64,000 nt of DNA from positions 1,487 to 65,486 of the forward strand of contig CAYGLL010000003.1 in assembly GCA_964350935.1 (NCBI GenBank). Direction: 5' to 3'. How positions within the stretch are numbered: the stretch's first letter is position 1; every line of letters starts with the position of its first letter. The position numbers and the translations under genes are program-made. Of the stretch, positions 3,346-40,430 are shown in pieces. The stretch comes from an uncultured Candidatus Saccharibacteria bacterium. Its GTDB lineage: Bacteria; Patescibacteriota; Minisyncoccia; Phycocordibacterales; CAYGLL01. The notes under the pieces were generated by a model. It was not told where the DNA came from, did no database searches, and saw only the letters and a program-made list of their open reading frames with translations.

Positions 3346-4029
3346 TTATCGAGGGGGTGGTGGTGCCGGTGGATTTCCCGACCAGTGGCAGCATACCTGG
3401 CCGGAAGTTATTCTGTGTCCTGGGGCTGGGTTCGGATTTTGTGTGCAGGCGTATCCTGGAGTAGAAATTGAGCTTACGAGAGTATAGTCGGGTCTTATTT
3501 CGCAACCAACGCTTGCAGACCGTTTGACATAAAGTTGGTTTCGTTCGCCGGCCGGTGGTGGCGGAGCAACGTTTCCTACTGGAGCGCCCGGTGTTATCAA
3601 CTGGAGATTAGTTACAAGGTCGGGGTTTAGGGTGTAGAGAATGAGATAGGAGAGAAAAGCAAGAAGAAGACCACCCAACGCATTCCAGATTCTCTTTTTT
3701 GCAGCTTCTTTACTGGTGATTGCTTCACTCACCATATATTCAATACCAGCATACGTTATGACAATAACGGCGAGGATTCCCGCAATCGCGATACCACCTT
3801 TGTAAGCTCCGGGGAGATAACGCTCGAGACGTGTATAGCAGTTAGTGCTGCGAGTTTGAGCGTTGGCCGCGCTACACGCTCCGTCAGTGGTTCCGGGAAT
3901 AGGTGCCATAGGAATGTAGTCTTCGAACGGTGGAATAATTTGTGCGTCTAGAGTGAGCGGTATGACGGAAGCCCAGAGAGTGATGGCGAGACAGGCTATT
4001 TTTGGCAGTAGTATAAAAATTTTTTTCAT
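3346..4029 (-). CDS. candidate VirB2/TrbC-like pilin (signal peptide + two hydrophobic helices, Cys/Pro-rich tail)
   Basis: Signal peptide MKKIFILLPKIACLAITLWASV followed by two TM segments (GGIAIAGILAVIVITYAG and GGLLLAFLSYLILYTL). It sits three genes below the VirB4-family ATPase. Confidence 0.35.
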   Translation of the reverse strand: MKKIFILLPKIACLAITLWASVIPLTLDAQIIPPFEDYIPMAPIPGTTDGACSAANAQTRSTNCYTRLERYLPGAYKGGIAIAGILAVIVITYAGIEYMVSEAITSKEAAKKRIWNALGGLLLAFLSYLILYTLNPDLVTNLQLITPGAPVGNVAPPPPAGERNQLYVKRSASVGCEIRPDYTLVSSISTPGYACTQNPNPAPGHRITSGQVCCHWSGNPPAPPPPR

Positions 4030-4037
4030 AACATTTG

Positions 4038-5042
4038 TTAACGAAGAGTGCCAAAACTAATATCAACTTTTGTTGAGGATGTATCGTAGGGTCTCAAGCT
4101 GTTTTTCGCAGATACACTGAGGCCGGTAACTTTTTTAACATCTTTATTTTTACGCATAAGCAGTGATTGTTTGTTCTCGTTTTCGGAAAGATTCTTACCG
4201 TCGATCTGCCAGGTATACCCTACTGAACTTAAAGGTTGCGAAAAAAAATAAGGGGTGGCTGCAACCATAAGATCGTTGCCCTCAGCAAGATATCCTCCAG
4301 CAAGAAAATGATTAGTCATGGTTCCGTAGAGTGGACTTTCCGGGTACAAAACAAGCTTAGGCGAGAGTGGTTCAAGATTCAGGAGTCCGCGCGCGGTCAT
4401 AGTCCCGTCAACCGACGAAACTTCAACGGTAATTCGTAATGCTGAGAATCGGCTTTCATCTTCGAGACGGAACGAATCTTTACCAAAACCCGATTGCTGG
4501 TCCATAACTTTAGTCCCCACTTTCCATTTATAGACCAGGTTCTTACTCGGGATTGCTTTTCCGTTTTGACCCACAAAATGAGGAAGAGCAAAGATGGTTG
4601 CAGAACTCTGGTTGGTGAAGAGCGCCTTGCCTTTGTAAAAGGGCGGTGTATAGGTATTTGCACGCCATGAAATTTCAACACCGGCCGGACGCAGGAACAC
4701 CGTTTTAGTAACATTGGTGCCGTCGGGAGCTTTAATAACAGCGCTCACTTCAAGCGCACTCCCCAATGCCCCGGTTCGGAAGCTTATCTTTTTTTCACCC
4801 ACACCACTCTTAGTGAGTTTCCCGTTCACATACCACGAGATCGTCGCAAAATTGAGATTGGTCGAGAACGTTTTTACTTCGGCGATCACTGTTTCGTTGG
4901 GACGGGGCGGGTCGGGACTAAATTGAATCTCATAAAAACTGTCCAAGAATGAAGATTGTTGCGCGTTAAGAGTTGCTGGAATAAGGATAAGCAGTAGCGC
5001 AGATACTACCCATACACACCTTGTAAAGACGGATTGTTTCAT
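4038..5042 (-). CDS. secreted hypothetical protein
   Basis: Cleavable-looking signal peptide followed by a beta-rich sequence, inside the T4SS-like operon. Confidence 0.4.
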   Translation of the reverse strand: MKQSVFTRCVWVVSALLLILIPATLNAQQSSFLDSFYEIQFSPDPPRPNETVIAEVKTFSTNLNFATISWYVNGKLTKSGVGEKKISFRTGALGSALEVSAVIKAPDGTNVTKTVFLRPAGVEISWRANTYTPPFYKGKALFTNQSSATIFALPHFVGQNGKAIPSKNLVYKWKVGTKVMDQQSGFGKDSFRLEDESRFSALRITVEVSSVDGTMTARGLLNLEPLSPKLVLYPESPLYGTMTNHFLAGGYLAEGNDLMVAATPYFFSQPLSSVGYTWQIDGKNLSENENKQSLLMRKNKDVKKVTGLSVSAKNSLRPYDTSSTKVDISFGTLR

Positions 5043-5094
5043 ACGTAAATAGTAGACCTATTTTACCATGCTCACCAAACTCACCTTACGCCAA

Positions 5095-6915
5095 TTATCC
5101 ACCGGCAGCCTCGTGTTCTGCTTTGGCTTTCTTAATCGAAAGAACCTGCGAAGGGTCTGAGGTGATGATTTGGTCTTCAGTGTAGGAGGCAATGATTTTG
5201 ATTGCTACGTGTTTGAGACCGACGAAGAACATGCCCTCCCCTACATCTGATTCAAGAAGCAGATATTTCTCTTCGTCGGTGAGATTAAATACTTGCTGCA
5301 GGCGATCAATCGAAGTCGGTGATTGTTTAAGGAGAATTTGGATTGAAGAGTTGGTGAGAATGGGAAGGCCGTAGGGGGATTTCAAAAAGTCATCAACGTC
5401 CTGGGTGATGGTTGCAAGGCCTAAGTAGTACTTGCGGCCGCGCTTCGCGAGTCCTAGAAGGAACGAGGCAGTATCATCGGAACGCATCATCCACCATGCC
5501 TCGTCGATAACCATCAGGCGCTTGCGTAAGTTTTTACGGATCGCGACCCAGATATAGTGTGTGACGATGTACATCGCAACCGGCTTCAGTTCGTCTTCCA
5601 TGTCGCGGAGCGAGAAGACAATGAACTTCGCGTTGATATCAACGTTTGAAGGCTGGTTCAGGAATCCTGACCATGTGCCGCGGGTATATTTTGAAAGTTT
5701 CTGAACCAGGACCTCAGCTCCTTCCATACCGGCCAAAACAAGTTCGAAGTCCGACATGAGGGGTGGTTCGGCATTGGTAAAATCACCGTCAGGTGTGATG
5801 TCTTTGAGTGCGTAGGTTTCTGTGATGGCACGGTCGATGATCGCATCCTCAGCAGGTGAAAGACCCCCGAGCATGATGCGGAAGAGGCCGACCAGCGTGA
5901 CGATGTTTGAACGCAACACATCTGAAGGGGACTCATCTTCGCGGATCATAGGAAGATCAAAAGGGTTGATGTGGTGTTCGGAGGTCAGTGAGATGTTGAA
6001 GTAGCGTCCTCCGACCGCCTCAGCCATGTATTCGTACTCGCGTTCAGGGTCGATAACAATAACTTCAGTATCGAACATGAGCGTGCGTAAAATTTCGAGT
6101 TTAGTCGTGTAGGATTTACCGGAACCAGATTTGGCAAAGGTGATCGAGTTGTAGTTCTCAAGACCGAATCGATCAAAGAGCACCAGTGATGAATTGTGAC
6201 GATTTATCCCGTAGAGAATTCCCTTGTCTGAGGTAAGGTCAAAGGAAACAAAGGGAAAGACACTCGACAATGGCGATGAGTTGAGTTTGGAGTGAACACC
6301 GAGTTCATCTGAGCAAATCGGTAGTGTTGAGCGAAAACCCTGCTCCTGCTGGAAGAGTGCCGGTTTGATATAGATGAGTTTCGATTCGAGGAGTGATTTT
6401 ACTTCGGACTCGATTTTATCAAGCTCTGCCTCATTATCTCCATAGATGGTGATGTAGAGTCCGACATCAAAGATCTTTTCCTGAGCCTGCTGGAGATCAT
6501 CGCGGAGTTTTTCAAGGTCCTGGTAGGCGGTATCGAGCATTGGGTCGCGCACCAACCCTTTTTCTTCTCGCATGTGAATCTGGCTTGAAACCTCGGCAAC
6601 TTTTTTCTGAAACTGTCGGAGTATTTGTGAGGTTTCAATAGGGTGAACAAAAATAGCGATATCAAATACTTTGTCGAGGTTGATGATTGGTGAAAACCAG
6701 CCTTCAGAAAGGAAGCGCGGGTATGACATAACAAAGAAGGTGCGGGCGATTTTTTCAGCGATGTGAAATTCGCGCGGAAGGATTTTGAGGGCTGAAGGAG
6801 CAATAATGTCTTTAAGTTCCAGGACGCCGGCCTCGTAAATTTCCTGCGGCAAAATTGCCGTGATCTGCGGCTTTTTCGACTGCGGTTTGAGGCCTAATTT
6901 TTCAAGTAATCCCAT
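5095..6915 (-). CDS. VirB4/TrbE/CagE-family conjugation-type ATPase, C-terminal two-thirds
   Basis: Walker A FAKSGSGKSYTT and Walker B VIDEAWWMM, typical VirB4 motifs. There is no N-terminal domain and the ORF starts right after the IR element. Confidence 0.8.
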   Translation of the reverse strand: MGLLEKLGLKPQSKKPQITAILPQEIYEAGVLELKDIIAPSALKILPREFHIAEKIARTFFVMSYPRFLSEGWFSPIINLDKVFDIAIFVHPIETSQILRQFQKKVAEVSSQIHMREEKGLVRDPMLDTAYQDLEKLRDDLQQAQEKIFDVGLYITIYGDNEAELDKIESEVKSLLESKLIYIKPALFQQEQGFRSTLPICSDELGVHSKLNSSPLSSVFPFVSFDLTSDKGILYGINRHNSSLVLFDRFGLENYNSITFAKSGSGKSYTTKLEILRTLMFDTEVIVIDPEREYEYMAEAVGGRYFNISLTSEHHINPFDLPMIREDESPSDVLRSNIVTLVGLFRIMLGGLSPAEDAIIDRAITETYALKDITPDGDFTNAEPPLMSDFELVLAGMEGAEVLVQKLSKYTRGTWSGFLNQPSNVDINAKFIVFSLRDMEDELKPVAMYIVTHYIWVAIRKNLRKRLMVIDEAWWMMRSDDTASFLLGLAKRGRKYYLGLATITQDVDDFLKSPYGLPILTNSSIQILLKQSPTSIDRLQQVFNLTDEEKYLLLESDVGEGMFFVGLKHVAIKIIASYTEDQIITSDPSQVLSIKKAKAEHEAAGG

Positions 6916-6924
6916 TTTATATAT

Positions 6925-7015
6925 GAATTATGAAGCAGGAATTATGAATTAAGAAAAGAGATTTCTTTTTGGTCAGATTCTTTTTCATTATTCTTAATTC
7001 GTTATTCATAATTCT
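6925..7015. mobile_element. MITE-like inverted-repeat element (GAATTATGAA...TTCATAATTC ends) splitting VirB4
   Basis: Left arm gaattatgaagcaggaattatgaattaagaa and right arm ttcttaattcgttattcataattc are reverse complements. The 103-bp block sits exactly between the VirB4 N- and C-terminal ORFs. Confidence 0.45.
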
Positions 7016-7018
7016 TTT

Positions 7019-7663
7019 TTAGTTTAGTTGAATCGGTTTCTCAATATCGCCGGGATTGAATATTTTGTAGTAGAGCTCGATGATCTCTTCGGTCCCCAGT
7101 TGTACGACCCTGATACCGCAGCGGATCAATCCCTGTTCAATAATGGAGAGGCGCTGTTCAAGTTGTGCCCGATTTTCTTCGAAATTTTCTTCTTTATCCC
7201 GCACCAGCTCGTCTTTAGTGCGGCTTCCGCCCATGCCCGGGATCCCACCAAGACCCTTTTTTCCACCCATCGCGGTTGGTGAGAAGGGCACCACAACGAA
7301 AAACGTTTTAGTCATGATACTTGTGCTTTCGGTGAATGTTTTTACGAATTCAATGTATTCGCGCGTCTGAATTTTCATCAGCTCATCCTCCTGATTCTTG
7401 TAGCGATCTTCGAGAAGCGCAAGGTATGGCCGAATATCCAGGCGTCGTGACTGAACGAATATTTGAATCGAAAAATCAAGCGAGTTTAAAAAGTTTTGAA
7501 ACTGAATAATGATTGCCTGCTGATTTTCTTCTGACTTGAGCGCAAAGTTCAGGGACGAGGTCATGGCAATACCGCGCAGCCCCCCGTCTTTCAGGATAAC
7601 TACACCATCACGTATCTCTTTGATGGGAACGAATTCCTGTGCAGCTTTTGATTTGATGGCCAT
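7019..7663 (-). CDS. VirB4-family ATPase, N-terminal domain fragment
   Basis: MAIKSKAAQEFVPIKEIRDGVVILKDGGLRGIAMTSSLNFALKSEENQQAIIIQF... matches the N-terminal domain pattern of Gram-positive VirB4 homologues. The track's TTG start at 7723 reads through the repeat, so the start is taken at MAIKSK. Confidence 0.6.
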   Translation of the reverse strand: MAIKSKAAQEFVPIKEIRDGVVILKDGGLRGIAMTSSLNFALKSEENQQAIIIQFQNFLNSLDFSIQIFVQSRRLDIRPYLALLEDRYKNQEDELMKIQTREYIEFVKTFTESTSIMTKTFFVVVPFSPTAMGGKKGLGGIPGMGGSRTKDELVRDKEENFEENRAQLEQRLSIIEQGLIRCGIRVVQLGTEEIIELYYKIFNPGDIEKPIQLN

Positions 7664-7679
7664 AAATAAGTGGAAGGAA

Positions 7680-7830
7680 GAATTATGAATTATGAAGTAT
7701 GAGGGAAGGTATACAGTATACAACGCGATGAGCTAAAAGATGCGATCCAGTTTCTTTCTCTCGGCTGTAAAATACATTCTTTTTTCTTAATTCTGTATTC
7801 ATAATTCTTAATTCATTACTCGCAATTCAT
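7680..7830. mobile_element. second copy of the inverted-repeat element (no cargo)
   Basis: gaattatgaattatgaag at 7680 and cttaattctgtattcataattcttaattcat at 7786-7830 are inverted copies of the locus A arms. Confidence 0.4.
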
Positions 7831-8275
7831 CCCTCCGCCCGTGGCGCACATCCTCGTCTTCAGTAACGGGATTCAGACTCTCTTTGATGTCGAGACTCCA
7901 GGTGAGGTCTTTGAGTTTTGAAGCAGAAAGCTTTGGTACATAGATCGGTTGCTGTTTCTTTTCCTCTTCAGCAGCTTCGGTAACCAGTTTTGGTTTAGGA
8001 TCAATTTTTTTCCAAGTATAGAGGCGGTCCCCGATGTAATATTTGAAGGCAGATTCCATAACATTAATGAATGCGCGGCCGTGTACTTTGTAGAATGCGA
8101 GTGCGAGTGAAACACCAACAACAGGAATGATAAAGATAATTCCCCACCACTTAAGGAATGACCAGATGACGAAGGCAAGGCCACCTCCGCCAATCAGAAA
8201 GACGAACTGTTTGAAGGTGAACGGTCCGAAGATTTTGTCTTCGACGCCTGTAAATTGTGGGACTTGAAAACGCAT
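7808..8275 (-). CDS. PrgI/VirB3-like small membrane protein
   Basis: N-terminal FTGVEDKIFGPFTFKQFVFLIGGG followed by two TM helices, adjacent to the VirB4 N-terminal ORF. Confidence 0.5.
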   Translation of the reverse strand: MRFQVPQFTGVEDKIFGPFTFKQFVFLIGGGGLAFVIWSFLKWWGIIFIIPVVGVSLALAFYKVHGRAFINVMESAFKYYIGDRLYTWKKIDPKPKLVTEAAEEEKKQQPIYVPKLSASKLKDLTWSLDIKESLNPVTEDEDVRHGRRDELRVMN

Positions 8276-8285
8276 GACAACGAAA

Positions 8286-8716
8286 GAATTATGAAGTGTG
8301 AATTACGAATTACGAATAAACTCTTTTGATTTTTTAATTAAACCGTTACAAAGCTTGCTCACCGTGATTGTGTGTTGTTCGGTTTCCATACATTCTTCAG
8401 AAGTTACATATCCAAGGTCTTTTGCGATAATTAATTGATTTTGTATCTCGGTAAGAGATCCGAGCGATATGTAATAGAATTTTACCTTTTCTTTAAATGA
8501 CTCTCTACTAAATCCTTCAGCGATGTTTGAAGTTATCGAGACGACCGCCCTTCTCATCTGGTTTACGAGCCCGAACTGCTCATCCTTAGGAAATTTTTTT
8601 GTTAGTTGGTAGATGGCAATAACGAGTACATGCCCTTCTTTCCACACATTCAAATCGGTAAATGACGATATTTTTTTCTGTCCGATTTCATTATTCATAA
8701 TTCTAAATTCATTCTT
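8286..8716. mobile_element. inverted-repeat element copy carrying a four-helix-bundle protein gene
   Basis: gaattatgaagtgtgaattacgaattacgaataa (8286-8320) and cattattcataattctaaattcattcttcg (8688-8716) flank ORF 8303-8698. The cargo start codon lies inside the GAATTATGAA motif. Confidence 0.45.
8303..8698 (-). CDS. four-helix-bundle protein (23S rRNA intervening-sequence protein family)
   Basis: DLNVWKEGHVLVIAIYQLTKKFPKDEQFGLVNQMRRAVVSITSNIAEGFSRES...LGSLTEIQNQLIIAKDLGY is the typical signature of this family. Confidence 0.75.
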   Translation of the reverse strand: MNNEIGQKKISSFTDLNVWKEGHVLVIAIYQLTKKFPKDEQFGLVNQMRRAVVSITSNIAEGFSRESFKEKVKFYYISLGSLTEIQNQLIIAKDLGYVTSEECMETEQHTITVSKLCNGLIKKSKEFIRNS

Positions 8717-8717
8717 C

Positions 8718-8740
8718 GTTGAGTAGTTTTGCTACTCAAC
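8718..8740 (-). terminator. perfect 9-bp hairpin overlapping the stop of ORF 8732-9781
   Basis: gttgagtag-ttttg-ctactcaac. Confidence 0.35.
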
Positions 8741-9781
8741 TGGTTCTCTGTACGGATCGGTTGAATATTTCTTTTCTTCACGCAGAGCAGCGGTGGTCGA
8801 AGTAAGTTTTTGCTCGACGATACCTTTTTCGGTTGGTGTTAGCGGTTTGCCCGGAGTTCCAAAGGGGGTGATGCTCGGTTGCCAGACTGGGCGTTGCGGT
8901 GGCGCAGGTCTTGCCGGCGGCGGGGGTGGTGGAGTTAAGGATGTTATGGGTTTTTCAACAGTACGTTGAGGTGGTTGAGGGGGCAGTGCTTGCAGTGCAG
9001 GAGGTGTGGGGGTTGAAGCCGGAGGAGTGAATACGGGAGGTTTCGGCGCCGGAGCTTCCATACGGGGTTTGGTCGGAATTACAGCTGCAAGAGGTGGCTT
9101 CGTCTGAACCTGAGGTGCGGGTGGAGTTTTTTCGGGAGTGTTTTGAGGAGGCCGCTGAAACTGTTGCCACATCGTTCCGGAATTGTTCGAAGAAACAGTG
9201 CCTGAAGGAAGGTTCGGAGGAGCGCTCGCGGGAGGTTTTGGTGCTGGAGGCGTAAAAGCAGTTTTCTGCGGTGGGAGTGAAAATCGTTTAGGCGCAGTAA
9301 ATGGAGAAGGTGGAGCTTGAGGAGGCGCAGTGGGCGGCGGCATAGCTTTAGATGGCGGTATGAACCCGTTTGGCATTAGGGGGTTGCTACGCGGAGAAGG
9401 TGGCGGCGCAAATGTTCGTCGGTTGAGAATAACTTCAGGTGGGGCAGCGTCTGCAGTTTCTTGAGGATGAACCTGTTTCAGTGCCTCACGTATCTCAAGA
9501 AAAACCTTTTGGTTTACCTCAGTCGCAATAAGATTTGCTTTGTCCGTTGGAATGCCAAGCGACTTGTGGACATTCTCAACAAATGAGTTTGGTCGCTCAA
9601 GGCCGATCATCACAAACATTGCCTCATTAGAGAGATTAGTCTGTTGTTCTTCGGAGAGAAGGAATTTTTCGGCGATGGTCGCGACTTTGCTTGGGTAATC
9701 AGAGGAAAGAATGACATTTTGAATGTCTTTGGGAAGCGCCTCAAATCGTTCCAGTATTTCTTTTTTAGTTTCTTCGTCCAT
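8732..9781 (-). CDS. hypothetical protein with ~110-aa N-terminal domain and long proline-rich low-complexity tail
   Basis: About 200 aa of PPxP repeats, possibly a cell-envelope-spanning linker, within the T4SS-like operon. Confidence 0.4.
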   Translation of the reverse strand: MDEETKKEILERFEALPKDIQNVILSSDYPSKVATIAEKFLLSEEQQTNLSNEAMFVMIGLERPNSFVENVHKSLGIPTDKANLIATEVNQKVFLEIREALKQVHPQETADAAPPEVILNRRTFAPPPSPRSNPLMPNGFIPPSKAMPPPTAPPQAPPSPFTAPKRFSLPPQKTAFTPPAPKPPASAPPNLPSGTVSSNNSGTMWQQFQRPPQNTPEKTPPAPQVQTKPPLAAVIPTKPRMEAPAPKPPVFTPPASTPTPPALQALPPQPPQRTVEKPITSLTPPPPPPARPAPPQRPVWQPSITPFGTPGKPLTPTEKGIVEQKLTSTTAALREEKKYSTDPYREPVE

Positions 9782-9787
9782 TAGTTT

Positions 9788-12337
9788 TTATTTTTTATCC
9801 CCTCCTTCTTTTTTGTCTTTTTTATCCTTCTTTTTTCCCTCCCCCTCATCATCTTCGTCAGGCTCCTTAAAGTCCTCACCGTATTTTTTCTTATGCCACT
9901 TTTTGAACATTTTCTCGAAGTCCTTACTCATACCCACTTCATCGTCATCTTCGTCATCGTCCGCTTTTTTCCCAGCTGACTTTCTGATTTTTTCGGCAAT
10001 TTTCCTGTTACCTTCTGTATCGCGGAAGCGATTACGCCAGAAAGAATCAGTTCTGCTTTTTTCCTCGAACGACTTAATGACGGATTCTTTCTGACCCTCG
10101 GCCGTTCTTAAGGTCGTTTTGGTCAGATCGTCATAGTTGCTTTCAGTGACCCCTTTCTTGTTTAAGTATTCCTGCACATCTTTGTAATCTTCAAGTTCTT
10201 TTTCTCCGTCCTTCAGCTGTTCTTTGTTTTTATCGAGCCACTCTTTTGATTTTTGTATGCGCTCGTTCGATTGTTGTATACGTGCCTCCGCCTCGCGTTT
10301 TATCTGTGTATCGCCTACTTGGTTTTTTGATATTTCCTCGTCTGCTTCAATTTGCTTTTTATCTACGTCTATTTGGTTTTGTACCACAGCTCCTTCTTTC
10401 ACGAGGGCTTCAAGGTCAGTCGTAGCTTTCTTGAAGGATTGAACAAAGTTTTTCTCAATTTCCTGAGTAACGGTTTCAGTGTTTTTCTTAATCTCATTAT
10501 TAATGCGCTCAATCGCTTTACCAAAGTTTGTTACTTTATTTTCTGCCTCACTCATTTCGCGATCAGTGTTTTGAATCTTTGTCTCTGCAGCAGCCATCTT
10601 TTGTTGGGCCTCATCATGTTGGGTCTGTGATGTTGCAGTCGTAATGGCTTTTGCGGCATCATCTTTGTCCTTCATTGCCTGCGCTCTTTGCTTAGTCAGA
10701 CTCTCTACCATTGCTTTTGCTTCACCAAGTTGTGTGGTCGTTGTCTTCTTCTCGTCCTCGAGTGGTTTATTACGCACGCTCGCGGTTTCGGTAATCATTT
10801 TGTTGCGAGCTTCCACAACTGTTTCACGCGTATCTTTTTCATCCTTTGCTTTCTTTGCGACAATATCACCAAACTTTTGTTCCTTTTTAACGCGGTCTTC
10901 CTGACGTTTATTAAACGACGTGGTTACAATACCTTCAGCTCCAAACATAGAGAGCGGACTCTTTTTACCCAACCCGGCTTTATCAGCAAGTTTCTGGAAG
11001 CCTTTATTCTCTCTGATATCAAAGCCGGCCTTTGAAACGCGGTCAGTTCCGGTGATAGTGCGTTTCGCAGCCCAGCGTCCAATAGCAGTCTTTCCAAGCA
11101 GTCCTTCTCCGCCCGCGATGCTATGAATTTTGCCACCAAGTGCTCCTTGTCCGGAAACCACTCCTGAAGCAACACGGCCGAGCGCCACTCTTCCAGCCGC
11201 CGCGGCTCCTCCCGTTGCAACTCCTAATGCGACCGTTCCCACAGCAGCCGCAACCGCCGCTCCGATTTTTTGCGCGAGCGAACCGAACTCGCCACCTAAC
11301 TCTTTTGTTTTTCTGACGACGAAAACGAGAAGACCGATCGCAATGATGTAGTTGAGGTAAAATGTTGGGTCGAGATCGCCGCCAGGAATAACTGAACTTC
11401 CCACAATGCTGGCGAAACCATCAATGACAGTAACGGCCAAGTAGTAGAGAACCATAAAGACCGGAGCAACGAGTGTTTGATCCCAGAGCTGTTTCCACCA
11501 CCAGTTTGATGCGCCTTTCGCGCCCGGAATAACATTCCCCACAAAACCAATCGGGGAAAGCATGAGAACAAAGGTGAGGCCGATAATTCTTCCCACAAAT
11601 ACTAAAACCACTGAGCAGAAAACATAGATGGCAACGCCAATGAGGAGCGCGCGCGCAATACTAATGAGGTATTTGGAGGTGCCGCTTAAGTTGTCTTCCG
11701 GTCGTTGGCCGGCAGTTGCCTGTGGGGCTACGCTGCCAGTTGCACGTGTTGGGTCGTATGTTCGAACAACGTCGGTTCTTTTAATGAAGTCTTCACTGAG
11801 CGATCGTGTGCCTCTACTCGTTATGGCACTGTAAAATCCATGTGCAACGATGTTTCCTGCATCAATAATAACTTTCGTAAAAAAGAGACTGAAGTTGATG
11901 AGGAGGATCGCGATGACCACCTTGGGGAGGTATGTTTTTGCCTGGTAGGAGCCTTCCTGAAGAATGGTTGAGATCGCGACGTAGATGAGAATAAAAATGA
12001 AGCTCATATTGATGAGATCGCGAACAATTTTCCACCCCACATTGATGCCCGCGATGCTGTTTAAAACAGCCGAGTTGAGGTTCAGTTTAATGACCGCATC
12101 GAGCACCAAACCGATGATGCCGAGAATGATGCCCATGACTGGCAAGATTATAAATTCAAAAAGAGCGTTATATACCTCACCCACGCAGTCGGCCAGACTA
12201 AAGTTAAAGAGTGAAATACAGGCCGCGCTCGCTTGTTGCGGAACAAAAATCACCACCAGAAGAACGCAGAGTGAAAGAATCGCGAACAGTTTCCGGTATT
12301 TTGGTGTCACTCTTTTTTTTCTAAAAAAGTTTATCAT
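9788..12337 (-). CDS. VirB6/TrbL-like polytopic membrane protein with long charged coiled-coil C-terminus
   Basis: Signal peptide, then at least six TM helices over ~350 aa. A K/E/D-rich coiled-coil/low-complexity tail follows (EKELEDYKD...KKDKKDKKEGGDKK). Confidence 0.45.
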   Translation of the reverse strand: MINFFRKKRVTPKYRKLFAILSLCVLLVVIFVPQQASAACISLFNFSLADCVGEVYNALFEFIILPVMGIILGIIGLVLDAVIKLNLNSAVLNSIAGINVGWKIVRDLINMSFIFILIYVAISTILQEGSYQAKTYLPKVVIAILLINFSLFFTKVIIDAGNIVAHGFYSAITSRGTRSLSEDFIKRTDVVRTYDPTRATGSVAPQATAGQRPEDNLSGTSKYLISIARALLIGVAIYVFCSVVLVFVGRIIGLTFVLMLSPIGFVGNVIPGAKGASNWWWKQLWDQTLVAPVFMVLYYLAVTVIDGFASIVGSSVIPGGDLDPTFYLNYIIAIGLLVFVVRKTKELGGEFGSLAQKIGAAVAAAVGTVALGVATGGAAAAGRVALGRVASGVVSGQGALGGKIHSIAGGEGLLGKTAIGRWAAKRTITGTDRVSKAGFDIRENKGFQKLADKAGLGKKSPLSMFGAEGIVTTSFNKRQEDRVKKEQKFGDIVAKKAKDEKDTRETVVEARNKMITETASVRNKPLEDEKKTTTTQLGEAKAMVESLTKQRAQAMKDKDDAAKAITTATSQTQHDEAQQKMAAAETKIQNTDREMSEAENKVTNFGKAIERINNEIKKNTETVTQEIEKNFVQSFKKATTDLEALVKEGAVVQNQIDVDKKQIEADEEISKNQVGDTQIKREAEARIQQSNERIQKSKEWLDKNKEQLKDGEKELEDYKDVQEYLNKKGVTESNYDDLTKTTLRTAEGQKESVIKSFEEKSRTDSFWRNRFRDTEGNRKIAEKIRKSAGKKADDDEDDDEVGMSKDFEKMFKKWHKKKYGEDFKEPDEDDEGEGKKKDKKDKKEGGDKK

Positions 12338-14343
12338 GGCACAACAAGTGTTCCCTGGTTAATGACGGTACCGTTAATTACACCGCCTCTGATCACGTCT
12401 GCTTCACCCGTGGTGAAGCCTGAAGAGATAAGCCCGCCGGTTGAAACGATGCCACCTATGAGCGGGATTACGTCAGCAACTGTCCCGCCGTCGTAGGTAC
12501 AGAAGCAGTTGTTGTCGAAATAATTGTTTGCCACTGTCCAACTTGCGAGTGAAGTACCGCTCAAAAGTGTTCCCCCGGTTATTACCGTACCCCCATTGAT
12601 TTGCCCTGTTTCAATGTGAATGACATTTATGGTTGTTCCGGCGCGATAGACAACTGGCGCAGTACTTCCATTGTCAGTATAGGTGGTGTTTGGCGCGAGG
12701 TGGGCGCTTGGCGGATACACCAGTGTTCCGCTTAGCTGTCCGCCGACAAGATTGATCGGGGTTATATTTCCAATAATCTGTGCACCGGTTATTTCTGCGC
12801 CGATAATTGAACCCACAGTCTGACTTACCGAGCCGCGGGTATCAACACCGTTTGCCCATGCTCCGGTAGTAAGACCGAGCGCATCATCGGCGGTAATAAT
12901 TCCACTCGAACTTCGGATCGGTGATGTTGCACTAAACATAATGCCGTCAACGGTTTGTGTGGCAATGTTGATCGTACGAACCGCTGTTGCACATCCGGCG
13001 GGATGACAAAGATACACGGTGCCGGCACGGGCGATCATTGAACCAGTGCTTTGTACTATGGCAGATGATGCTGCGCGTATACGAAGCCCCGTTCCTACAG
13101 GGGTAAACCTCATGTTAGTAACATTGACGTTTCTCAAGGTTCCATTGATGTCAGCCCCGACCAAGTGAAGGCCGAATGCTGTTGTTGAGGTTGCGGGGCC
13201 GCCACCAATTGGTGTCGATGTGCCAATCACGGGTGGTGTAGGGGTTGCGATAATGAAATCCGGAAGAGGTGGTGGCGGATCAATGTCAGGGCCGGTAAGA
13301 GTGCCGCCGGCGCGAGTGCCAATGATAGTATCGTCAAAAGCAGCCTGTGCCGAATTACGCGTGTTTCCAGTTGTCGCTCCAGCCAACCCGTTAAGCGCGG
13401 TGCTCAAGAGCTGATTCATAAGTGCGCCGATGATTTCGTTGATTTCGTCAGCAACTTCAAGGCGGCGCTTACCACTATCTAAGCTGTCGTTGATTTGAGT
13501 TTCTACAACAGATCCAGGAGTAACCGTTTCTGAGTAGTACGCTGTTGAGCAGTCACTCGTTTCGTTGCCGGACGTGTCATAACATTTTTCTTGTGAGAGA
13601 AACCCCCTTCCCCAACTTAACTGCTTGTCTTTGAGTATTGTTTTGTTTGCAATACGGAGTCCCGCTTCCGCTTGAGCAATAGTGAACGCACCATACATAT
13701 TGTTTTGCGGTCTGCCGGTCATTGATATCCAACTATCCCATCCGTTTGCACTCGTACGATTGAAAACGTCTTGAGTGTTTTGGATTACCCGTGAGAGCGT
13801 ACAGCCGTTGCGTTGTTTGAAACGACCCGTCGCTAAGTTGAGTTCAAGTGCAAGGGCAAAATTAATATCAAACTGATTACACAAAAATCCAAAATCAGAA
13901 CTCGCAATAAATGCACCGATCTCATGATCGGCAAGGTCGGTAAAGAATGCTCCCGGGTCCTGGATAAATCCCGGTCCGCCCTGAAAACCACCCTGGATCC
14001 ATTGCACGATGCTGTCTCCAATGTAGGAAATAAGCGTGTTCAGGACGGCAAAAGCGATACCGTCGAGAATATTTTCTTTGGTTTCCAAAGACTGAGAAAC
14101 ACGCGCCATGAGTGTAGTATTTTGTTGCACGACGCGCATGGTGTTTACCGCCTGCTGAAGTCCCTGCTGAGTGATGCGTTGTAACTGAAGATCGTTCACA
14201 GGAACTGTTGCTCCTTGTGCAGATGCGGTCGAAATTTCAAGAAAGGGTGTTGCTATCAGAGCAAGAATACCCACGATACTAAAAAAAGTTCTCGATGTGA
14301 GAAAAAAATTGAAGAAAGCAAAAGTGACGTGGCTTTTCCTCAT
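12334..14343 (-). CDS. large secreted Gly/Thr-rich hypothetical protein (beta-helix-like repeats)
   Basis: Signal peptide, and a C-terminal half with GGT/ING repeats. It overlaps the start of the VirB6-like gene by 4 bp. Confidence 0.4.
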   Translation of the reverse strand: MRKSHVTFAFFNFFLTSRTFFSIVGILALIATPFLEISTASAQGATVPVNDLQLQRITQQGLQQAVNTMRVVQQNTTLMARVSQSLETKENILDGIAFAVLNTLISYIGDSIVQWIQGGFQGGPGFIQDPGAFFTDLADHEIGAFIASSDFGFLCNQFDINFALALELNLATGRFKQRNGCTLSRVIQNTQDVFNRTSANGWDSWISMTGRPQNNMYGAFTIAQAEAGLRIANKTILKDKQLSWGRGFLSQEKCYDTSGNETSDCSTAYYSETVTPGSVVETQINDSLDSGKRRLEVADEINEIIGALMNQLLSTALNGLAGATTGNTRNSAQAAFDDTIIGTRAGGTLTGPDIDPPPPLPDFIIATPTPPVIGTSTPIGGGPATSTTAFGLHLVGADINGTLRNVNVTNMRFTPVGTGLRIRAASSAIVQSTGSMIARAGTVYLCHPAGCATAVRTINIATQTVDGIMFSATSPIRSSSGIITADDALGLTTGAWANGVDTRGSVSQTVGSIIGAEITGAQIIGNITPINLVGGQLSGTLVYPPSAHLAPNTTYTDNGSTAPVVYRAGTTINVIHIETGQINGGTVITGGTLLSGTSLASWTVANNYFDNNCFCTYDGGTVADVIPLIGGIVSTGGLISSGFTTGEADVIRGGVINGTVINQGTLVVP

Positions 14344-16821: not shown

Positions 16822-17680
16822 TTTCTCCGAGACGCATCGCGAGCGTTTTCCAGTGTTCAACTGAAAGATCTTCTGCACGTATATCATGCGGAATGTTTAG
16901 TTCTGAAAATAATTTTTCAAGCGCAGGTTTTTCTCCCGGGAGGTTATTCAAAAGTTTTTTCCGCTTGCTGCCAAAACCTTGTTTGAGGATTTCAAAAAAT
17001 TTCTTTTCGTCAAGTTCTGCGAAAAATGTTTTAGAAATGTTGGTGATAGCGAGAATTGCCGAGTCAACATTGGGCGCCGGGACAAACGCACCACGCGGAA
17101 CTTTTTGAGTGAGTGTTGGCGTGCCGTACGCTTTAATCGAAATTGAAAGAATGCTTTGCTTTCCCTCACGTGCAACAATGCGGTCCGCAACCTCTTTTTG
17201 AGTAAGCACAACAATTGTTGTTGGTTGATGCTCGGATTCAAGAAATTTTTTAAAAATCGCACCGGTAATGTAGTAAGGGATATTAGCTATAAGCTTGTAG
17301 CTGTTAGCTGTTAGCTTTAGTGAATCGAGATTAACTTTAAGAATGTCGGCGTGTACGAGTTGAAGTTGACCCGAAGCAATTTCCTTGGAAAATTTTTCAC
17401 TGAGAATAGGAATGAGGCGGTCATCTTTTTCAACTGCAATTACTTGCGCATTTCGTGAAAGTAATTCACGTGTGAGTGTTCCTTCTCCGGGGCCGATCTC
17501 GAGAACAATTTCACCCGCGCGAATATCCCCCGCGTCAACAATTTTTTTCAAAATTCCGGGTGAACGTAAAAAATTCTGCCCGAGTGATTTCCTTGCCTGT
17601 ACGAAAAATTTTTCTTCGCTGCGATTGGAAGAAGTACTACGCTTCGTGTAAAAATTTTTCGTTTCGGGTTTCTGAAACAT
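16802..17680 (-). CDS. rsmA: 16S rRNA (adenine1518/1519-N6)-dimethyltransferase
   Basis: GQNFL..GEIVLEIGPGEGTLTREL motif. The track ORF has an about 49-aa upstream extension, so the start is taken at MFQKPE. Confidence 0.75.
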   Translation of the reverse strand: MFQKPETKNFYTKRSTSSNRSEEKFFVQARKSLGQNFLRSPGILKKIVDAGDIRAGEIVLEIGPGEGTLTRELLSRNAQVIAVEKDDRLIPILSEKFSKEIASGQLQLVHADILKVNLDSLKLTANSYKLIANIPYYITGAIFKKFLESEHQPTTIVVLTQKEVADRIVAREGKQSILSISIKAYGTPTLTQKVPRGAFVPAPNVDSAILAITNISKTFFAELDEKKFFEILKQGFGSKRKKLLNNLPGEKPALEKLFSELNIPHDIRAEDLSVEHWKTLAMRLGETNFQNQ

Positions 17681-37796: not shown

Positions 37797-37869
37797 GCGT
37801 TCGTAGCTCAATGGATAGAGCACTTGCCTTCGAAGCAAGGGGTTGCAGGTTCGAGTCCTGCCGAGCGCG
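37797..37869 (+). tRNA. tRNA-Arg (anticodon TCG), no encoded CCA
   Basis: Hand-folded cloverleaf: acceptor GCGTTCG/CGAGCGC, anticodon loop CTTCGAA and T-loop TTCGAGT. Confidence 0.7.
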
Positions 37870-38080
37870 CAGCGATCGAGCAAGGCGATTTATCGCCTTG
37901 CGAGCAGGACTCGAAAAGGCTGAGTATATTTCTGGAAAATTCTTATTTTTCTGGAATTCGAAGCCTGTACCGGTCCTGTAGGGACCGGGTCCCAACCACT
38001 GATCTCGTAGAGATCGAGTTTTTCTTGATAGCCTGTAGTTTTTTGCCCAAACGCCTTGTTGTGCTAGAATTTCGAAGTTC

Positions 38081-38151
38081 GCGGGTATGGTTTAGTGGTA
38101 GAACACGTCCTTGCCAAGGATGAGATGGGAGTTCGATTCTCCCTACCCGCA
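38081..38151 (+). tRNA. tRNA-Gly (anticodon GCC), no encoded CCA
   Basis: Acceptor GCGGGTA/TACCCGC, anticodon loop TTGCCAA and T-loop TTCGATT. Confidence 0.7.
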
Positions 38152-38362
38152 CACGAACGAAGTGAGTTGGCGGTAGAGCACGCAACCTTCGTTGCGTGCG
38201 TGGAGAATCGAACGCCGGAGCGTTGCCGAGCCAGCAGGTGAGGCCGCGAGGCGGTGGCTAGGCCGAGGAGTGCGGCGGCACGACGAGAGCCGATGCCGGT
38301 TCTCCTGTCCGCAGGGATTGATCCCTCTCCGCACAAAATAAATTCCAGCTCGCGTCCAGATG

Positions 38363-38391
38363 TTTACAAATCTGTGGATAAATGTGGGGAT
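38363..38391 (+). promoter_or_regulatory. cluster of three DnaA boxes (TGTGGATAA x2 perfect, TGTGGGGAT degenerate) at ~10-bp phasing, followed by AT-rich stretch
   Basis: TGTGGATAA at 38363-38371 and 38383-38391 is the exact reverse complement of TTATCCACA, and an AT-rich stretch follows from 38400 to 38500. Confidence 0.45.
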
Positions 38392-38508
38392 ATGTGGATA
38401 AAGGACAAAGTCTCTTAGTCTTATATATGTCTTATAAATGGCTCTACTGAGCCTTAAGATGTCCAAAATGCTACATATCTAAAAAGTTACACGTGAAACA
38501 CGTTTTAT

Positions 38509-38925
38509 ATGAAAGAGGAGGACATAACATTACAAGTCGGGGTTAAAATTTTGCTTAAAAATAGTAAAGGTGAGTTCTTGGTTCTTCTTAGATCCCGAAT
38601 AAAATACGGAAATTTTGGAGATATGTGGGATATTCCAGGTGGCAGAATAATCCCCGGAACTGACTTAATCGAAAATCTTAGACGGGAAATTAAGGAGGAA
38701 ACAGGTCTAAATTACACGGGAATACCGGTTTTAGTGGCCGCTCAGGATGTTTTGAGACATAAAGACAAGCATGTAGTTCGTTTAACGTATATAGGTGAGT
38801 TAGACGGAGTGCCTGTTTTAGACGACGAAAATACTGAATATAAGTGGCTAACTCTCCCAGAAATGAAGAAAATGAATGATTTAGACCAGTATGTGCGGGA
38901 ACTACTCAAACGCGATTTTATTTAG
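38509..38925 (+). CDS. NUDIX hydrolase
   Basis: Nudix box GGRIIPGTDLIENLRREIKEETGL. Confidence 0.75.
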   Translation: MKEEDITLQVGVKILLKNSKGEFLVLLRSRIKYGNFGDMWDIPGGRIIPGTDLIENLRREIKEETGLNYTGIPVLVAAQDVLRHKDKHVVRLTYIGELDGVPVLDDENTEYKWLTLPEMKKMNDLDQYVRELLKRDFI

Positions 38926-38934
38926 GCTCATCCT

Positions 38935-39330
38935 ATGGAAAAATGGAGTGAAAAGCGACAATTTGGTAATAAGGGTGAGGAAATAGCCACAAAATTCCTT
39001 ATTTCAAACGGTTTTGAGATTAAAGAAAGGAACTTTTTGCGAAAATATGGCGAAATAGACATTGTTGCACGTTCAAAAGACAACGTTTTTCATTTTATTG
39101 AGGTAAAAAGTGTTTCCCGTGAAAGCACTGACGGTGATAAGAAGGATGAATTTAGGCCGGAAGACAATATTACTCCGGAAAAAATACGAAGTTTGTCGCG
39201 AGTTATTCAGGTATATATCGAAGAAAAAAAGCTCGACGACTTTGACTGGGTGTTTTCGATAATAACGGTAAAGATTGATGAGAAAAATAAGGTTGCACGA
39301 GTAAAATTCATCGAAGATATTGTCCTTTAG
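38935..39330 (+). CDS. yraN: YraN/UPF0102-family endonuclease-like protein
   Basis: GNKGEEIATKFLISNGFEIKERNFLRKYGEIDIVA..FIEVK. Confidence 0.65.
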   Translation: MEKWSEKRQFGNKGEEIATKFLISNGFEIKERNFLRKYGEIDIVARSKDNVFHFIEVKSVSRESTDGDKKDEFRPEDNITPEKIRSLSRVIQVYIEEKKLDDFDWVFSIITVKIDEKNKVARVKFIEDIVL

Positions 39331-39373
39331 TGCGTTCTTGATTTCTGTGTTAAACTCAACTTTCGGGTAATTA

Positions 39374-40270: not shown

Positions 40271-40430
40271 CAGCAATGAGCGCAGCGAATATGCTGTGCG
40301 AGGACAGCAAGCACCTACGTGCTTGCGTGGGAGAATCGAAAAGCTTCTCCCATATTTTCGAGTCATTCTTATGCTGAGAAAATGGGAAAGCTGCACTGCT
40401 CCTGTAGGGAGCGATTTCGTCCCGCACAGA

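What the first reader, a model, noticed from the sequence alone, without database searches (positions are those of the whole stretch)
6916..8716. Three copies of a small inverted-repeat element (GAATTATGAA...TTCATAATTC) within 2 kb: one splits VirB4, one carries a four-helix-bundle gene
Matching inverted arms occur at three loci:
- Locus A: about 6925-6955 and 6990-7015.
- Locus B: 7680-7700 and 7786-7830.
- Locus C: 8286-8320 and 8688-8716.

Loci A and B enclose only 40-90 bp and no ORF, so they look MITE-like. Locus C encloses the complete gene for a four-helix-bundle protein of the 23S-rRNA-intervening-sequence family, and that gene's ATG lies inside the GAATTATGAA terminal motif.

Locus A sits exactly between the N-terminal-domain ORF and the ATPase ORF of a VirB4-family protein. 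The two ORFs are in different frames and are separated by 103 bp. This is consistent with an element insertion having split an essential secretion ATPase. This gene family is known to be scattered in genomes, in rRNA intervening sequences and near DGRs, but no transposition vehicle has been described for it. Here it looks like the cargo of a tiny inverted-repeat-bounded cassette that leaves cargo-less derivatives.
Basis: seen in the sequence. Interest (0 to 1): 0.8.

Follow-up and report, generated by a model that had tools for sequence, protein, structure and literature searches.

The report
Heptamer-armed hairpin cassettes in an operon
Three copies of a small hairpin element built from inverted runs of a 7-base unit sit in the gaps between genes of a secretion operon; one carries a four-helix-bundle gene, just as ribosomal-RNA intervening sequences do. 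They did not break the VirB4 gene, but they point to a widespread and apparently undescribed carrier for this gene family.

Summary
- Six period-7 arrays (GAATTAn and its complement) form three inverted-repeat elements at 6925-7014, 7680-7814 and 8286-8717.
- 16 of the 21 motif hits in the 64-kb window fall in these 1.8 kb.
- Element C encloses a PF05635/TIGR02436 four-helix-bundle (IVP) gene whose start and stop codons lie inside the arms.

**The VirB4 claim is wrong.** In 79 of 79 related Patescibacteria genomes the N-terminal ORF and the ATPase ORF are separate genes. They usually lie 1-20 nt apart, and their protein ends are conserved whether or not an element is present.

**The "vehicle" idea holds and generalises.**
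- About 87 of 95 IVP genes examined are flanked by inverted arrays.
- A 7-nt period scores best at about 85% of the ends.
- The cassettes are wedged, co-oriented, between operon genes.
- The same three spacers of this operon hold IVP cassettes, a GxxExxY nuclease cassette, bare hairpins or nothing in different genomes.
- Arm sequence tracks IVP similarity.
- The same design occurs in the 23S rRNA intervening sequences of Azospirillum and Coxiella, and around IVP genes in Nostoc, Anabaena and Riemerella.

**Still open.** How the elements move is unknown, and whether the bare hairpins derive from full cassettes is unresolved.

The parts
8276..8731 (-). Element C, the full cassette. It fills the spacer between the P349 gene (stop at 8732-8734) and the PrgI gene (start at 8275).
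   Evidence: (I21) and 11: the outer stem of the minimum-free-energy fold pairs the two arms.
8687..8717 (-). 5' arm of C in transcript sense: GAAGAAT GAATTTA GAATTAT GAATAAT GAA. It contains the IVP start codon (8696-8698).
   Evidence: hits at 8687-8696 and 8694-8703; period 7, 8687-8712.
8303..8698 (-). Cargo gene: a 131-aa four-helix-bundle protein of the 23S-rRNA-intervening-sequence family.
   Evidence: - PF05635, E = 1.3e-37.
- TIGR02436, 123 bits against a cutoff of 24.
- Closest solved structure is XCC0516, 2GSC, E = 2e-19.
- The motif Q..R...S...N..E is conserved.
8286..8316 (-). 3' arm of C in transcript sense: TTCGTAA TTCGTAA TTCACAC TTCATAA TTC. It contains the IVP stop codon (8303-8305).
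   Evidence: 8300-8317, period 7, 100% matches.
7664..7814 (-). Element B, an ORF-less hairpin in the PrgI|VirB4-N spacer. The arms are 7784-7814 (5' in sense, containing the PrgI stop at 7808-7810) and 7680-7702 (3' in sense). The interior is about 81 nt.
   Evidence: I3, I18: 17 nt, 94% complementary; -32.6 kcal/mol, z = -4.2.
6916..7018 (-). Element A, an ORF-less hairpin that fills the 103-nt spacer between the VirB4-N ORF and the VirB4 ATPase ORF. The arms are 6984-7014 (5' in sense) and 6925-6955 (3' in sense).
   Evidence: - (I1: 40 nt, 78%; -22.8 kcal/mol, z = -4.55).
- Its 5' arm matches that of B over about 40 nt, including the order of variant units.
7019..7663 (-). VirB4 N-terminal-domain gene (214 aa from the ATG at 7663). 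It is an ancestral stand-alone gene, not a fragment.
   Evidence: -: a separate ORF in 79 of 79 relatives.
- PF26593 TraC-like.
5095..6915 (-). VirB4-type ATPase gene (606 aa), intact.
   Evidence: - PF19044, E = 1e-26.
- 76-83% identical over residues 1-606 to relatives that start at the same Met.
7808..8275 (-). PrgI (VirB3-like) gene, flanked by elements C and B. Its last codons and its stop are encoded by the arm of B.
   Evidence: PF12666, E = 1.9e-8; sequence.

Best explanation
**What it is.** The three loci are copies of one repeat family: hairpin elements whose two arms are inverted tandem arrays of a 7-nt unit (GAATTAn on the transcript strand, nTAATTC on the return arm).
- They sit exactly in the stop-to-start spacers of a co-directional type-IV-secretion-like operon of a Paceibacteria (candidate phyla radiation) genome.
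- The gene order is P349 | PrgI | VirB4-N | VirB4-ATPase.
- Element C is the cargo-bearing form. It is a promoterless, sense-oriented four-helix-bundle (IVP) gene whose start and stop codons are embedded in the arms.
- Elements A and B are ORF-less copies.
- The design matches the ORF-bearing intervening sequences of 23S rRNA. This is an intervening-sequence-type selfish cassette living in messenger-RNA operons instead of rRNA.
- The two-gene VirB4 is ancestral and has nothing to do with the element.

**How it works (inferred).**
- The cassette is transcribed by read-through from the host operon.
- Its arms can pair into a long stem that brackets the ORF and brings the neighbouring stop and start codons together.
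- By analogy with rRNA intervening sequences, that stem would be an RNase III substrate. Cutting would release the ORF RNA and separate the flanking cistrons.

**How it spreads.**
- Spread is by copying arm plus loop, or arm plus cargo, into other operon spacers. No recognisable target duplication is left.
- The enzyme is unknown and probably acts in trans, because the same kind of arms carries unrelated cargo.
For: **Shown in the window**
- The motif is clustered and has a 7-nt period.
- The IVP gene is identified.
- A and B share about 40 nt of 5' arm, including the order of variant units.

**Shown in 80 GTDB relatives**
- The spacers are normally 1-20 nt, and the protein termini are conserved whether the spacer is empty or filled.
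- Expanded spacers hold heptamer-armed hairpins with or without IVP.
- All 20 IVP ORFs are co-oriented with the operon.
- The inverted-repeat score has a median of 14.5, against a median of 7 and a 95th percentile of 10 for 650 control ORFs.
- One metagenomic relative, L105, has all three spacers filled: IVP, GxxExxY and a divergent IVP.

**Shown in 80 metagenomic IVP loci**
- 69 of 75 have inverted arms.
- Lag-7 autocorrelation is 0.53-0.54 against 0.30 in controls. Lag 7 is the best lag in 75/92 and 80/91 ends, against 64/513 in controls.
- Neighbours are co-oriented in 50/53 (upstream) and 50/56 (downstream), with median gaps of about 27 and 16 nt.
- Hosts include carA|carB, secD|secF, AsnRS|AspRS and por operons.
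- Arm sequence outside the ORF correlates with IVP core similarity: Mantel rho = 0.36, null sd = 0.046.

**Link to rRNA intervening sequences**
- The Azospirillum lipoferum IVP lies inside the LSU rRNA gene (2529 bits), with arms GAGGACG GATGACA GAGGACG GAGGACA.
- The Coxiella intervening sequence has a 28-bp stem of terminal inverted repeats and tandem GACAGAT heptamers before the ORF. RNase III cuts at the first repeat, and the ORF is sense to the rRNA transcript (PMC4990558).

**Other phyla.** Nostoc, Anabaena and Riemerella IVP genes are flanked by inverted 7-nt arrays. Picosynechococcus and Leptolyngbya have inverted arrays with an 8-nt period.

**Hairpins copy as units.** In L005 the hairpins in spacers C and B share arm plus loop, 29 of 31 nt, p < 0.002.
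Against: - Arm mismatches show no excess of G.U-compatible pairs on the sense strand (135 against 160). Selection for an RNA stem is therefore not demonstrated, and complementarity could be maintained at the DNA level or simply be young.
- RNase III cleavage is only an analogy.
- No strain-level empty-site allele of this genome was found. Gain and loss is inferred from species that are at most 83% identical at the nucleotide level, apart from one pair at 91%.
- No target-site duplication and no transposase were found.
- The interiors of A and B show no remnant of the IVP gene (p = 0.78 and 0.09).
- All three copies lie within 2 kb, and no other copy occurs in the remaining 62 kb.
- A few IVP genes are flanked by direct arrays, one-sided arrays or no arrays (Pseudanabaena, Gemmatirosa, Calothrix).
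Confidence: 0.72

Rival explanations
1. One reading: a MITE-like element inserted into a once-continuous VirB4 gene, splitting an essential ATPase into two frames.
For: The two ORFs are in different frames, 103 nt apart, and the element fills the gap exactly.
Against: - 79 of 79 relatives encode two ORFs with their own stop and start, in mixed frames. 60 of the 79 are 30 nt or less apart with no element.
- The termini ...EKPIQxN* and MG(I/L)F.. are conserved with and without an element.
- The N-terminal ORF is a Pfam family of its own.
Confidence: 0.02
2. The hairpins come first. Heptamer-armed hairpins are host or parasitic intercistronic elements in their own right, comparable to REP elements. 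Small accessory genes (IVP, GxxExxY, Dam and others) secondarily lodge in or next to their loops. On this view A and B are landing pads, not derivatives.
For: - The interiors of bare hairpins carry no IVP remnant.
- In L005 spacer B the GxxExxY ORF sits between an extra 5' array and a complete hairpin that is a copy of the bare hairpin in spacer C.
- Bare hairpins occur in genomes or loci with no IVP nearby, and in phage spacers.
- rRNA intervening sequences replace the tips of existing helices (PMC4990558).
- The cargo is diverse.
Against: - Arm sequence tracks the IVP clade, not the host genome. Two cassettes in one genome (L017, L035, L053) have different arms.
- IVP start and stop codons are built into the arms.
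Confidence: 0.3
3. A DNA transposon with protein-bound ends. The arrays are multiple binding sites in inverted orientation at the two ends, as in Tn7 or Mu ends. They would be bound by the IVP pentamer or a partner recombinase, and pairing of the arms would be irrelevant.
For: - There is no sense-strand wobble bias.
- Each heptamer has a variable seventh position.
- Arm type co-varies with IVP clade.
- IVP is homologous to Avd, the nucleic-acid-binding cofactor of diversity-generating retroelement reverse transcriptases. The Avd models hit weakly.
Against: - No catalytic activity is known for the fold.
- The same kind of arms flanks non-IVP cargo and nothing at all.
- No target duplication is present.
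- No recombinase is linked to the element in the loci examined.
Confidence: 0.15
4. The elements are ordinary operon punctuation (terminators, attenuators or promoters) or chance low-complexity sequence.
For: They are intergenic, AT-rich and hairpin-forming.
Against: - No shuffle reached the observed motif count.
- No promoter-like or terminator-like site on the coding strand falls in the three elements. The stems are AT-rich and lack a T-run.
- Rfam finds nothing.
- Most relatives have 1-20-nt spacers here.
- The arms recur around IVP genes across phyla.
Confidence: 0.03

Closest known systems
ORF-bearing intervening sequences (IVS) of 23S rRNA (Leptospira, Coxiella, Xanthomonas, Brucella, Azospirillum)
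   Same: - The cargo family is the same (PF05635, also called S23p).
- The ORF is sense to the host transcript.
- Terminal inverted repeats bracket the ORF.
- The arms are made of tandem heptamers that end at the ATG: GACAGAT x3 in Coxiella (PMC4990558) and GAGGACG/GATGACA in Azospirillum.
- Distribution among relatives is sporadic.
   Different: - The host transcript is a protein-coding operon, not rRNA. The insertion site is a stop-to-start spacer, not the tip of helix 9, 25 or 45.
- ORF-less copies sit alongside.
- RNase III excision is untested here.
REP/BIME elements and MITEs
   Same: They are small, imperfect palindromes. They multiply within a genome, lie between co-transcribed genes and are transcribed with them.
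   Different: - No RAYT or other transposase partner was seen in the loci examined. The window was not screened for one, and no target duplication was found.
- The arms are period-7 arrays whose unit differs between lineages.
- A cargo-bearing form exists in which the ORF's start and stop are part of the arms.
Cyanobacterial STRR heptanucleotide repeats and other intergenic heptamer arrays (for example TAACTGA in Beggiatoaceae, PMC4679880)
   Same: - They are tandem 7-nt units in intergenic spacers, often ending just before a start codon.
- In Nostoc edaphicum and Anabaena sp. 90 such arrays flank IVP genes in inverted orientation.
   Different: STRR arrays are described as direct arrays of unknown function. 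I found no paper in the searchable library that links them to IVP genes or to inverted pairs.
Avd of diversity-generating retroelements
   Same: A homologous four-helix-bundle fold.
   Different: - The scores are below the family cutoffs: bAvd 25.5 against 40, and NF033474 22.8 against 80.
- No reverse transcriptase or template/variable repeat pair is adjacent.
Free-standing homing-endonuclease genes and integron gene cassettes
   Same: - They are promoterless small genes wedged between operon genes.
- The alternative cargo GxxExxY is a PD-(D/E)XK nuclease-fold protein.
   Different: - There is no integrase and no attC site. The inverted repeats flank both sides.
- IVP itself has no known nuclease activity.

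Membership tests
ORF-bearing rRNA intervening sequence (IVS) element | Encodes a PF05635 / S23p four-helix-bundle protein | tested here: met
   PF05635, E = 1.3e-37. TIGR02436, 123 bits against a cutoff of 24. 2GSC, E = 2e-19.
ORF-bearing rRNA intervening sequence (IVS) element | Terminal inverted repeats that bracket the ORF and can form a stem; the ORF is sense to the host transcript | tested here: met
   Arms at 8286-8316 and 8687-8717. The outer stem appears in the fold. The ORF is co-oriented with the operon.
ORF-bearing rRNA intervening sequence (IVS) element | Tandem heptamers in the arm just upstream of the ATG (Coxiella, Azospirillum) | tested here: met
   TRF calls period 7 at all six arms. 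Compare.
ORF-bearing rRNA intervening sequence (IVS) element | Inserted in a 23S (or 16S) rRNA helix | tested here: not met
   There is no rRNA in the window. The element lies between protein-coding genes.
ORF-bearing rRNA intervening sequence (IVS) element | Excised from the precursor RNA by RNase III | not testable with these tools
   Needs RNA end mapping or an in-vitro cleavage assay.
MITE | Terminal inverted repeats and multiple copies | tested here: met
   Three copies. A and B share about 40 nt of arm.
MITE | Target-site duplication flanking the element | tested here: not met
   No direct repeat was recognisable at the junctions of A, B or C, nor in the filled-versus-empty comparison.
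MITE | Deletion derivative of an autonomous element that encodes a transposase | tested here: not met
   - The only cargo types seen are IVP, GxxExxY, Dam and small ORFs.
- The interiors of A and B show no remnant of the cargo.
REP/BIME | Cognate RAYT (Y1 transposase) in the genome | not tested
   Only about 64 kb of the genome is available, and the window ORFs were not all screened.
Diversity-generating retroelement (Avd) | Avd-family score above cutoff and an adjacent reverse transcriptase with template/variable repeats | tested here: not met
   - bAvd 25.5 against a cutoff of 40, and NF033474 22.8 against 80.
- The neighbours are T4SS genes.
Intrinsic terminator / sigma-70 promoter | G+C-rich stem followed by a T-run, or -35/-10 hexamers on the coding strand | tested here: not met
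   No such site falls in the three elements on the - strand, and the counts are no higher than in shuffles.
Insertionally split VirB4 | Relatives encode one continuous VirB4 where the element is absent | tested here: not met
   79 of 79 relatives have two ORFs.

The most novel reading that the evidence does not exclude
- Four-helix-bundle IVP genes and inverted arrays of 7-nt units would together form one pan-bacterial class of operon-wedging mobile cassettes.
- The classical ORF-bearing 23S rRNA intervening sequences would be the special case that landed in rRNA.
- Bare heptamer hairpins, and at least part of the cyanobacterial STRR heptamer repeats, would be their ORF-less relatives.
- The arms would be the functional ends of a transposition or copying mechanism that leaves no target duplication and is not yet known. 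Two candidates are multi-site protein binding and reiterative, telomerase-like synthesis, which would give both 3' ends the same repeat.
- The same mechanism would also mobilise other small cargo, such as the GxxExxY nuclease and phage Dam methylase.
Probability: 0.35. Interest if true: 0.85.

Novelty: new variant of a known kind. Interest (0 to 1): 0.7.

Why it matters
- The function of the very abundant [quoted passage not shown] family has been open for 30 years. So has the origin of rRNA intervening sequences and of intergenic heptamer repeats.
- A simple structural rule ties these three puzzles together and makes them testable: the gene lies between inverted period-7 arrays and is wedged sense-oriented into operon spacers.
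- Testing needs only arm-binding assays, RNase III mapping and marked-element mobility assays.
- The rule offers a more mundane explanation for reports that IVP genes are "CRISPR-associated". In cas6|IVP|cas4 (Anabaena sp. 90) and cmr2|IVP|cmr3 (Picosynechococcus) the gene is wedged between operon genes, co-oriented, with inverted arrays on both sides.
- For annotation, it warns against calling the naturally two-gene VirB4 of Patescibacteria a pseudogene.

Tried and rejected
1. **A three-frame stop/restart function for the 7-nt period.** The excess of ATG and stop triplets in the arms is fully explained by the ORF's own start and stop codons. Rejected.
2. **An RNA-specific signature.** G.U-compatible mismatches number 135 against 160 A.C-type, so nothing favours a sense-RNA stem.
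3. **Remnants of the IVP gene inside bare hairpins.** None is significant for window A or B (p = 0.78 and 0.09). Five of six same-genome pairs in relatives were also negative. A seventh pair, L079, had too short an interior (about 21 nt) to be informative. Only the L005 hairpins match each other.
4. **Rfam.** No family matches at gathering or permissive thresholds. No rRNA was found in 20 metagenomic IVP loci that lack flanking ORFs.
5. **Strain-level empty sites.** Exact-protein look-ups returned only the same arrangement. The GTDB relatives are at most 83% identical at the nucleotide level, apart from one pair at 91% in which both members are empty.
6. **A profile scan with all 20 IVPs.** A 5-sequence subgroup was used instead, so the metagenome sample is biased toward IVPs like the one in the window.
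7. **The arm motif as a probe in viral contigs.** At least 120 stretches matched, but only 27 of 145 arrays have an inverted partner and only 2 IVP ORFs were present. The array alone is not diagnostic.
8. **Literature.** No paper in the searchable library links IVP genes to heptamer-armed cassettes outside rRNA. Ralph & McClelland 1993 could not be read.
Full report
**1. What is in the window**

All genes from 3346 to 14343 lie on the minus strand and form a type-IV-secretion-like operon. In transcript order the genes are:
- an 849-aa coiled-coil membrane protein;
- a 349-aa proline-rich protein (P349, 8732-9781);
- a 131-aa PF05635 protein (IVP, 8303-8698);
- PrgI (7808-8275);
- a 214-aa ORF (7019-7663);
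- a 606-aa VirB4/TraC-type ATPase (5095-6915);
- two further genes, one of them pilin-like.

The closest genomes are Patescibacteria of the Paceibacteria/Parcubacteria group, labelled Taylorbacteria, Zambryskibacteria, Kaiserbacteria and similar.

The motif GAATTATGAA with up to one mismatch occurs 21 times in the window. Shuffles give 7.3 +/- 2.7 and never more than 14. Sixteen of the hits lie between 6925 and 8703.

Three arm pairs are found:
- 6925-6955 with 6984-7014 (A);
- 7680-7702 with 7784-7814 (B);
- 8286-8316 with 8687-8717 (C).

Tandem Repeats Finder independently calls a period-7 array at each of the six arms.

On the transcript strand, A and B fold with z-scores of -4.55 and -4.16. 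In the fold of C the two arms form the outer stem.

The IVP start codon and stop codon lie inside the arms of C. The PrgI stop codon lies inside an arm of B.

There is no Rfam match. No promoter-like or terminator-like site on the coding strand falls in the elements.

**2. VirB4 was not split**

I fetched 80 loci from GTDB species representatives whose ATPase is 76-83% identical and mapped all operon proteins onto them.

- In 79 of 79 loci that contain both parts, the N-terminal ORF ends at its own stop and the ATPase ORF begins at its own ATG, in mixed frames.
- 60 of the 79 spacers are 30 nt or shorter, and many are 1-6 nt.
- The junction table shows conserved protein ends (...TEKPIQIN* and MGIFDF...) whether the spacer is 4 nt or holds a 500-nt insert. 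One example is L024 (empty) against L025 (506 nt).
- The N-terminal ORF is also a Pfam family of its own, PF26593 TraC-like.

Element A is therefore an insertion into a short spacer between two ancestral genes.

**3. The cassette idea is right and is general**

The same three spacers are hot spots in relatives. Expanded spacers of 55-660 nt hold hairpins whose arms are tandem units of about 7 nt. The unit differs between lineages:
- ATACGAA in L005 and L073;
- GAGTTAn in L017;
- AGCTTCn in L020, L025, L051, L059 and L065;
- CAACnnn in L079 and L046;
- AAAAGTA in L039.

An iterative profile search found 20 IVP ORFs in the window plus the 80 loci. Every one is co-oriented with the operon. They sit in spacer A (6 loci), spacer B (4) or upstream of PrgI.

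Their flanks give an inverted-repeat score with a median of 14.5. For 650 other ORFs the median is 7 and the 95th percentile is 10.

One metagenomic relative, L105, has all three spacers filled: IVP, a GxxExxY protein and a divergent IVP.

A metagenome scan with five IVPs like the window's returned 80 further loci. Only about nine of them are in T4SS operons.
- 69 of 75 testable genes have inverted flanks, with a median score of 18. The units are of the type GAATnAn, GTATTAn, GGAATAT or GTAGAAT.
- Over 92 cassettes, lag-7 autocorrelation of the ends is 0.53-0.54 against 0.30 in controls.
- Lag 7 is the best lag in 75/92 and 80/91 ends, against 64/513 control ends.
- The upstream neighbour is co-oriented in 50/53 cases and the downstream neighbour in 50/56. 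Median gaps are about 27 and 16 nt.
- The hosts are ordinary operons: carA|carB, secD|secF, AsnRS|AspRS, cupredoxin|P-type ATPase and histidine kinase|sigma-54 regulator.
- A pyruvate:ferredoxin oxidoreductase operon carries four elements in 3.4 kb, two of them bare hairpins.

Arm sequence strictly outside the ORF correlates with similarity of the IVP core (Mantel rho = 0.36, null sd = 0.046). Two cassettes in one genome can have different arms (L017, L035, L053). Arms and ORF therefore travel together.

**4. Link to the known element**

The Coxiella burnetii 23S rRNA intervening sequence shares the design (PMC4990558):
- a 28-bp stem formed by terminal inverted repeats;
- three tandem GACAGAT heptamers plus a degenerate fourth immediately before the S23p ATG;
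- RNase III cleavage at the first repeat;
- an ORF that is sense to the rRNA transcript.

That paper also records the 1993 proposal that such intervening sequences are mobile elements.

I verified a second case directly. On Azospirillum lipoferum plasmid p2 an IVP gene lies inside the LSU rRNA gene (Rfam 2529 bits). Its arms are GAGGACG GATGACA GAGGACG GAGGACA and their complement, with an inverted-repeat score of 23.5.

IVP genes on plasmids of cultured organisms show the same thing:
- Nostoc edaphicum: (GGGAGTA)n and (TACTCCC)n between nrdB and nrdA, score 31.5;
- Anabaena sp. 90: (GGTGACA)n between cas6 and cas4;
- Riemerella: (AAGGTTn)n;
- Nostoc ATCC 53789, Picosynechococcus (between cmr2 and cmr3) and Leptolyngbya also have flanking inverted arrays, with an 8-nt period in the last two.

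There are exceptions. Direct arrays flank the gene in Pseudanabaena and Gemmatirosa, and Calothrix has a one-sided array.

Earlier reports of IVP genes inside cas operons (PMC3936711; PMC10910872) fit this wedging behaviour.

**5. Cargo is not restricted to IVP**

- In L005 and L105, spacer B holds a GxxExxY / PD-(D/E)XK protein between inverted arrays. The matches are TIGR04256 E = 4e-18 and PF13366 E = 3e-20.
- In viral contigs, GAATTAT-type arms flank a Dam methyltransferase (PF05869, E = 2e-29; L226 830-1339) and a 94-aa ORF (L206). Bare hairpins fill several phage spacers.
- Most such arrays in viral contigs have no inverted partner (27 of 145 do), so the array alone is not diagnostic.

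**6. Are the bare hairpins derivatives?**

- Window A and B share about 40 nt of 5' arm, including the order of variant units.
- In L005, two hairpins share arm plus loop at 29 of 31 nt, p < 0.002. Hairpins therefore copy as units.
- The interiors of A and B, and of five of six tested hairpins in relatives, have no significant similarity to the resident cargo gene.
- In L005 spacer B the ORF sits beside a complete hairpin.

Whether hairpins are deletion products or landing pads stays open.

**7. Mechanism**

Shown:
- precise occupation of the spacer;
- sense orientation;
- no promoter-like site;
- arms capable of pairing;
- patchy occupancy among relatives.

Inferred:
- read-through transcription;
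- stem formation;
- RNase III processing, by analogy with rRNA intervening sequences.

Against a purely RNA-level role, arm mismatches show no sense-strand wobble bias (135 against 160). No target duplication, transposase or reverse transcriptase is linked. Because unrelated cargo shares the design, a trans-acting factor is more likely than the cargo itself. The idea that a 7-nt period supplies stops and starts in all three frames was tested and rejected.

**8. Verdict**

- The VirB4 interpretation is wrong.
- The vehicle interpretation is essentially right, and it turns out to be the rRNA intervening-sequence design operating in messenger-RNA operons across several phyla.
- I found no description of this rule in the searchable literature, although that library lacks many subscription papers.
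- I rate it a new variant of a known kind. Interest is 0.7.

Noticed in passing
L005:4698-5217 and L105:4896-5309: In two relatives the PrgI|VirB4-N spacer holds a GxxExxY / PD-(D/E)XK nuclease-fold gene (TIGR04256, PF13366) between inverted heptamer-type arrays. This is a second, unrelated cargo for the same kind of cassette.
   Followed up: partly
L226:820-1400; L206:470-3300 (IMG/VR contigs): - In viral contigs, GAATTAT-type inverted arrays flank a phage Dam methyltransferase (PF05869) and a 94-aa ORF.
- Bare hairpins or arrays occupy several spacers of one phage-like contig.
   Followed up: partly
L125:1248-4700: - A pyruvate:ferredoxin oxidoreductase operon carries four heptamer-armed elements in 3.4 kb. 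One of them has reversed polarity and a 390-nt non-IVP interior.
- The IVP cassette there sits between two small ORFs of 75 aa and about 70 aa, neither of which was scanned against a family library.
   Followed up: no
L003-L082 (80 GTDB relatives): All 19 IVP ORFs found in the 12-14-kb loci lie upstream of the ATPase gene, and none lies downstream. The P349-PrgI-VirB4N stretch is an unexplained hot spot.
   Followed up: no
L016:3900-6000: One relative fills all three spacers with a different repeat family. Its hairpins are built on CTCCCTTTCCTAAAGGGAG-like palindromes and have no heptamer period.
   Followed up: no
window 50014-50045: [quoted passage not shown] No inverted partner is nearby.
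   Followed up: partly
window 17283-17320: A period-7 array (TTAGCTG, 5.6 copies) lies inside the coding sequence of a KsgA-type rRNA adenine dimethylase (PF00398). It is probably coincidental.
   Followed up: partly
L165 (Anabaena sp. 90 pANA02) and L171 (Picosynechococcus PCC 7003): IVP genes annotated inside cas operons (cas6|IVP|cas4 and cmr2|IVP|cmr3) are flanked by inverted short-unit arrays. Published "CRISPR association" of this family may therefore reflect operon wedging rather than function.
   Followed up: partly
window 7019-7663: The ORF listing start (TTG at 7723) for the VirB4 N-terminal ORF lies inside element B. Alignment with relatives supports the ATG at 7663.
   Followed up: yes
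window 37797-40271: Four tRNA genes (Arg-TCG, Gly-GCC, Pro-TGG, Gly-TCC) are scattered over 2.5 kb, in a region whose GC content is lower than the rest of the window (about 41-43%).
   Followed up: no
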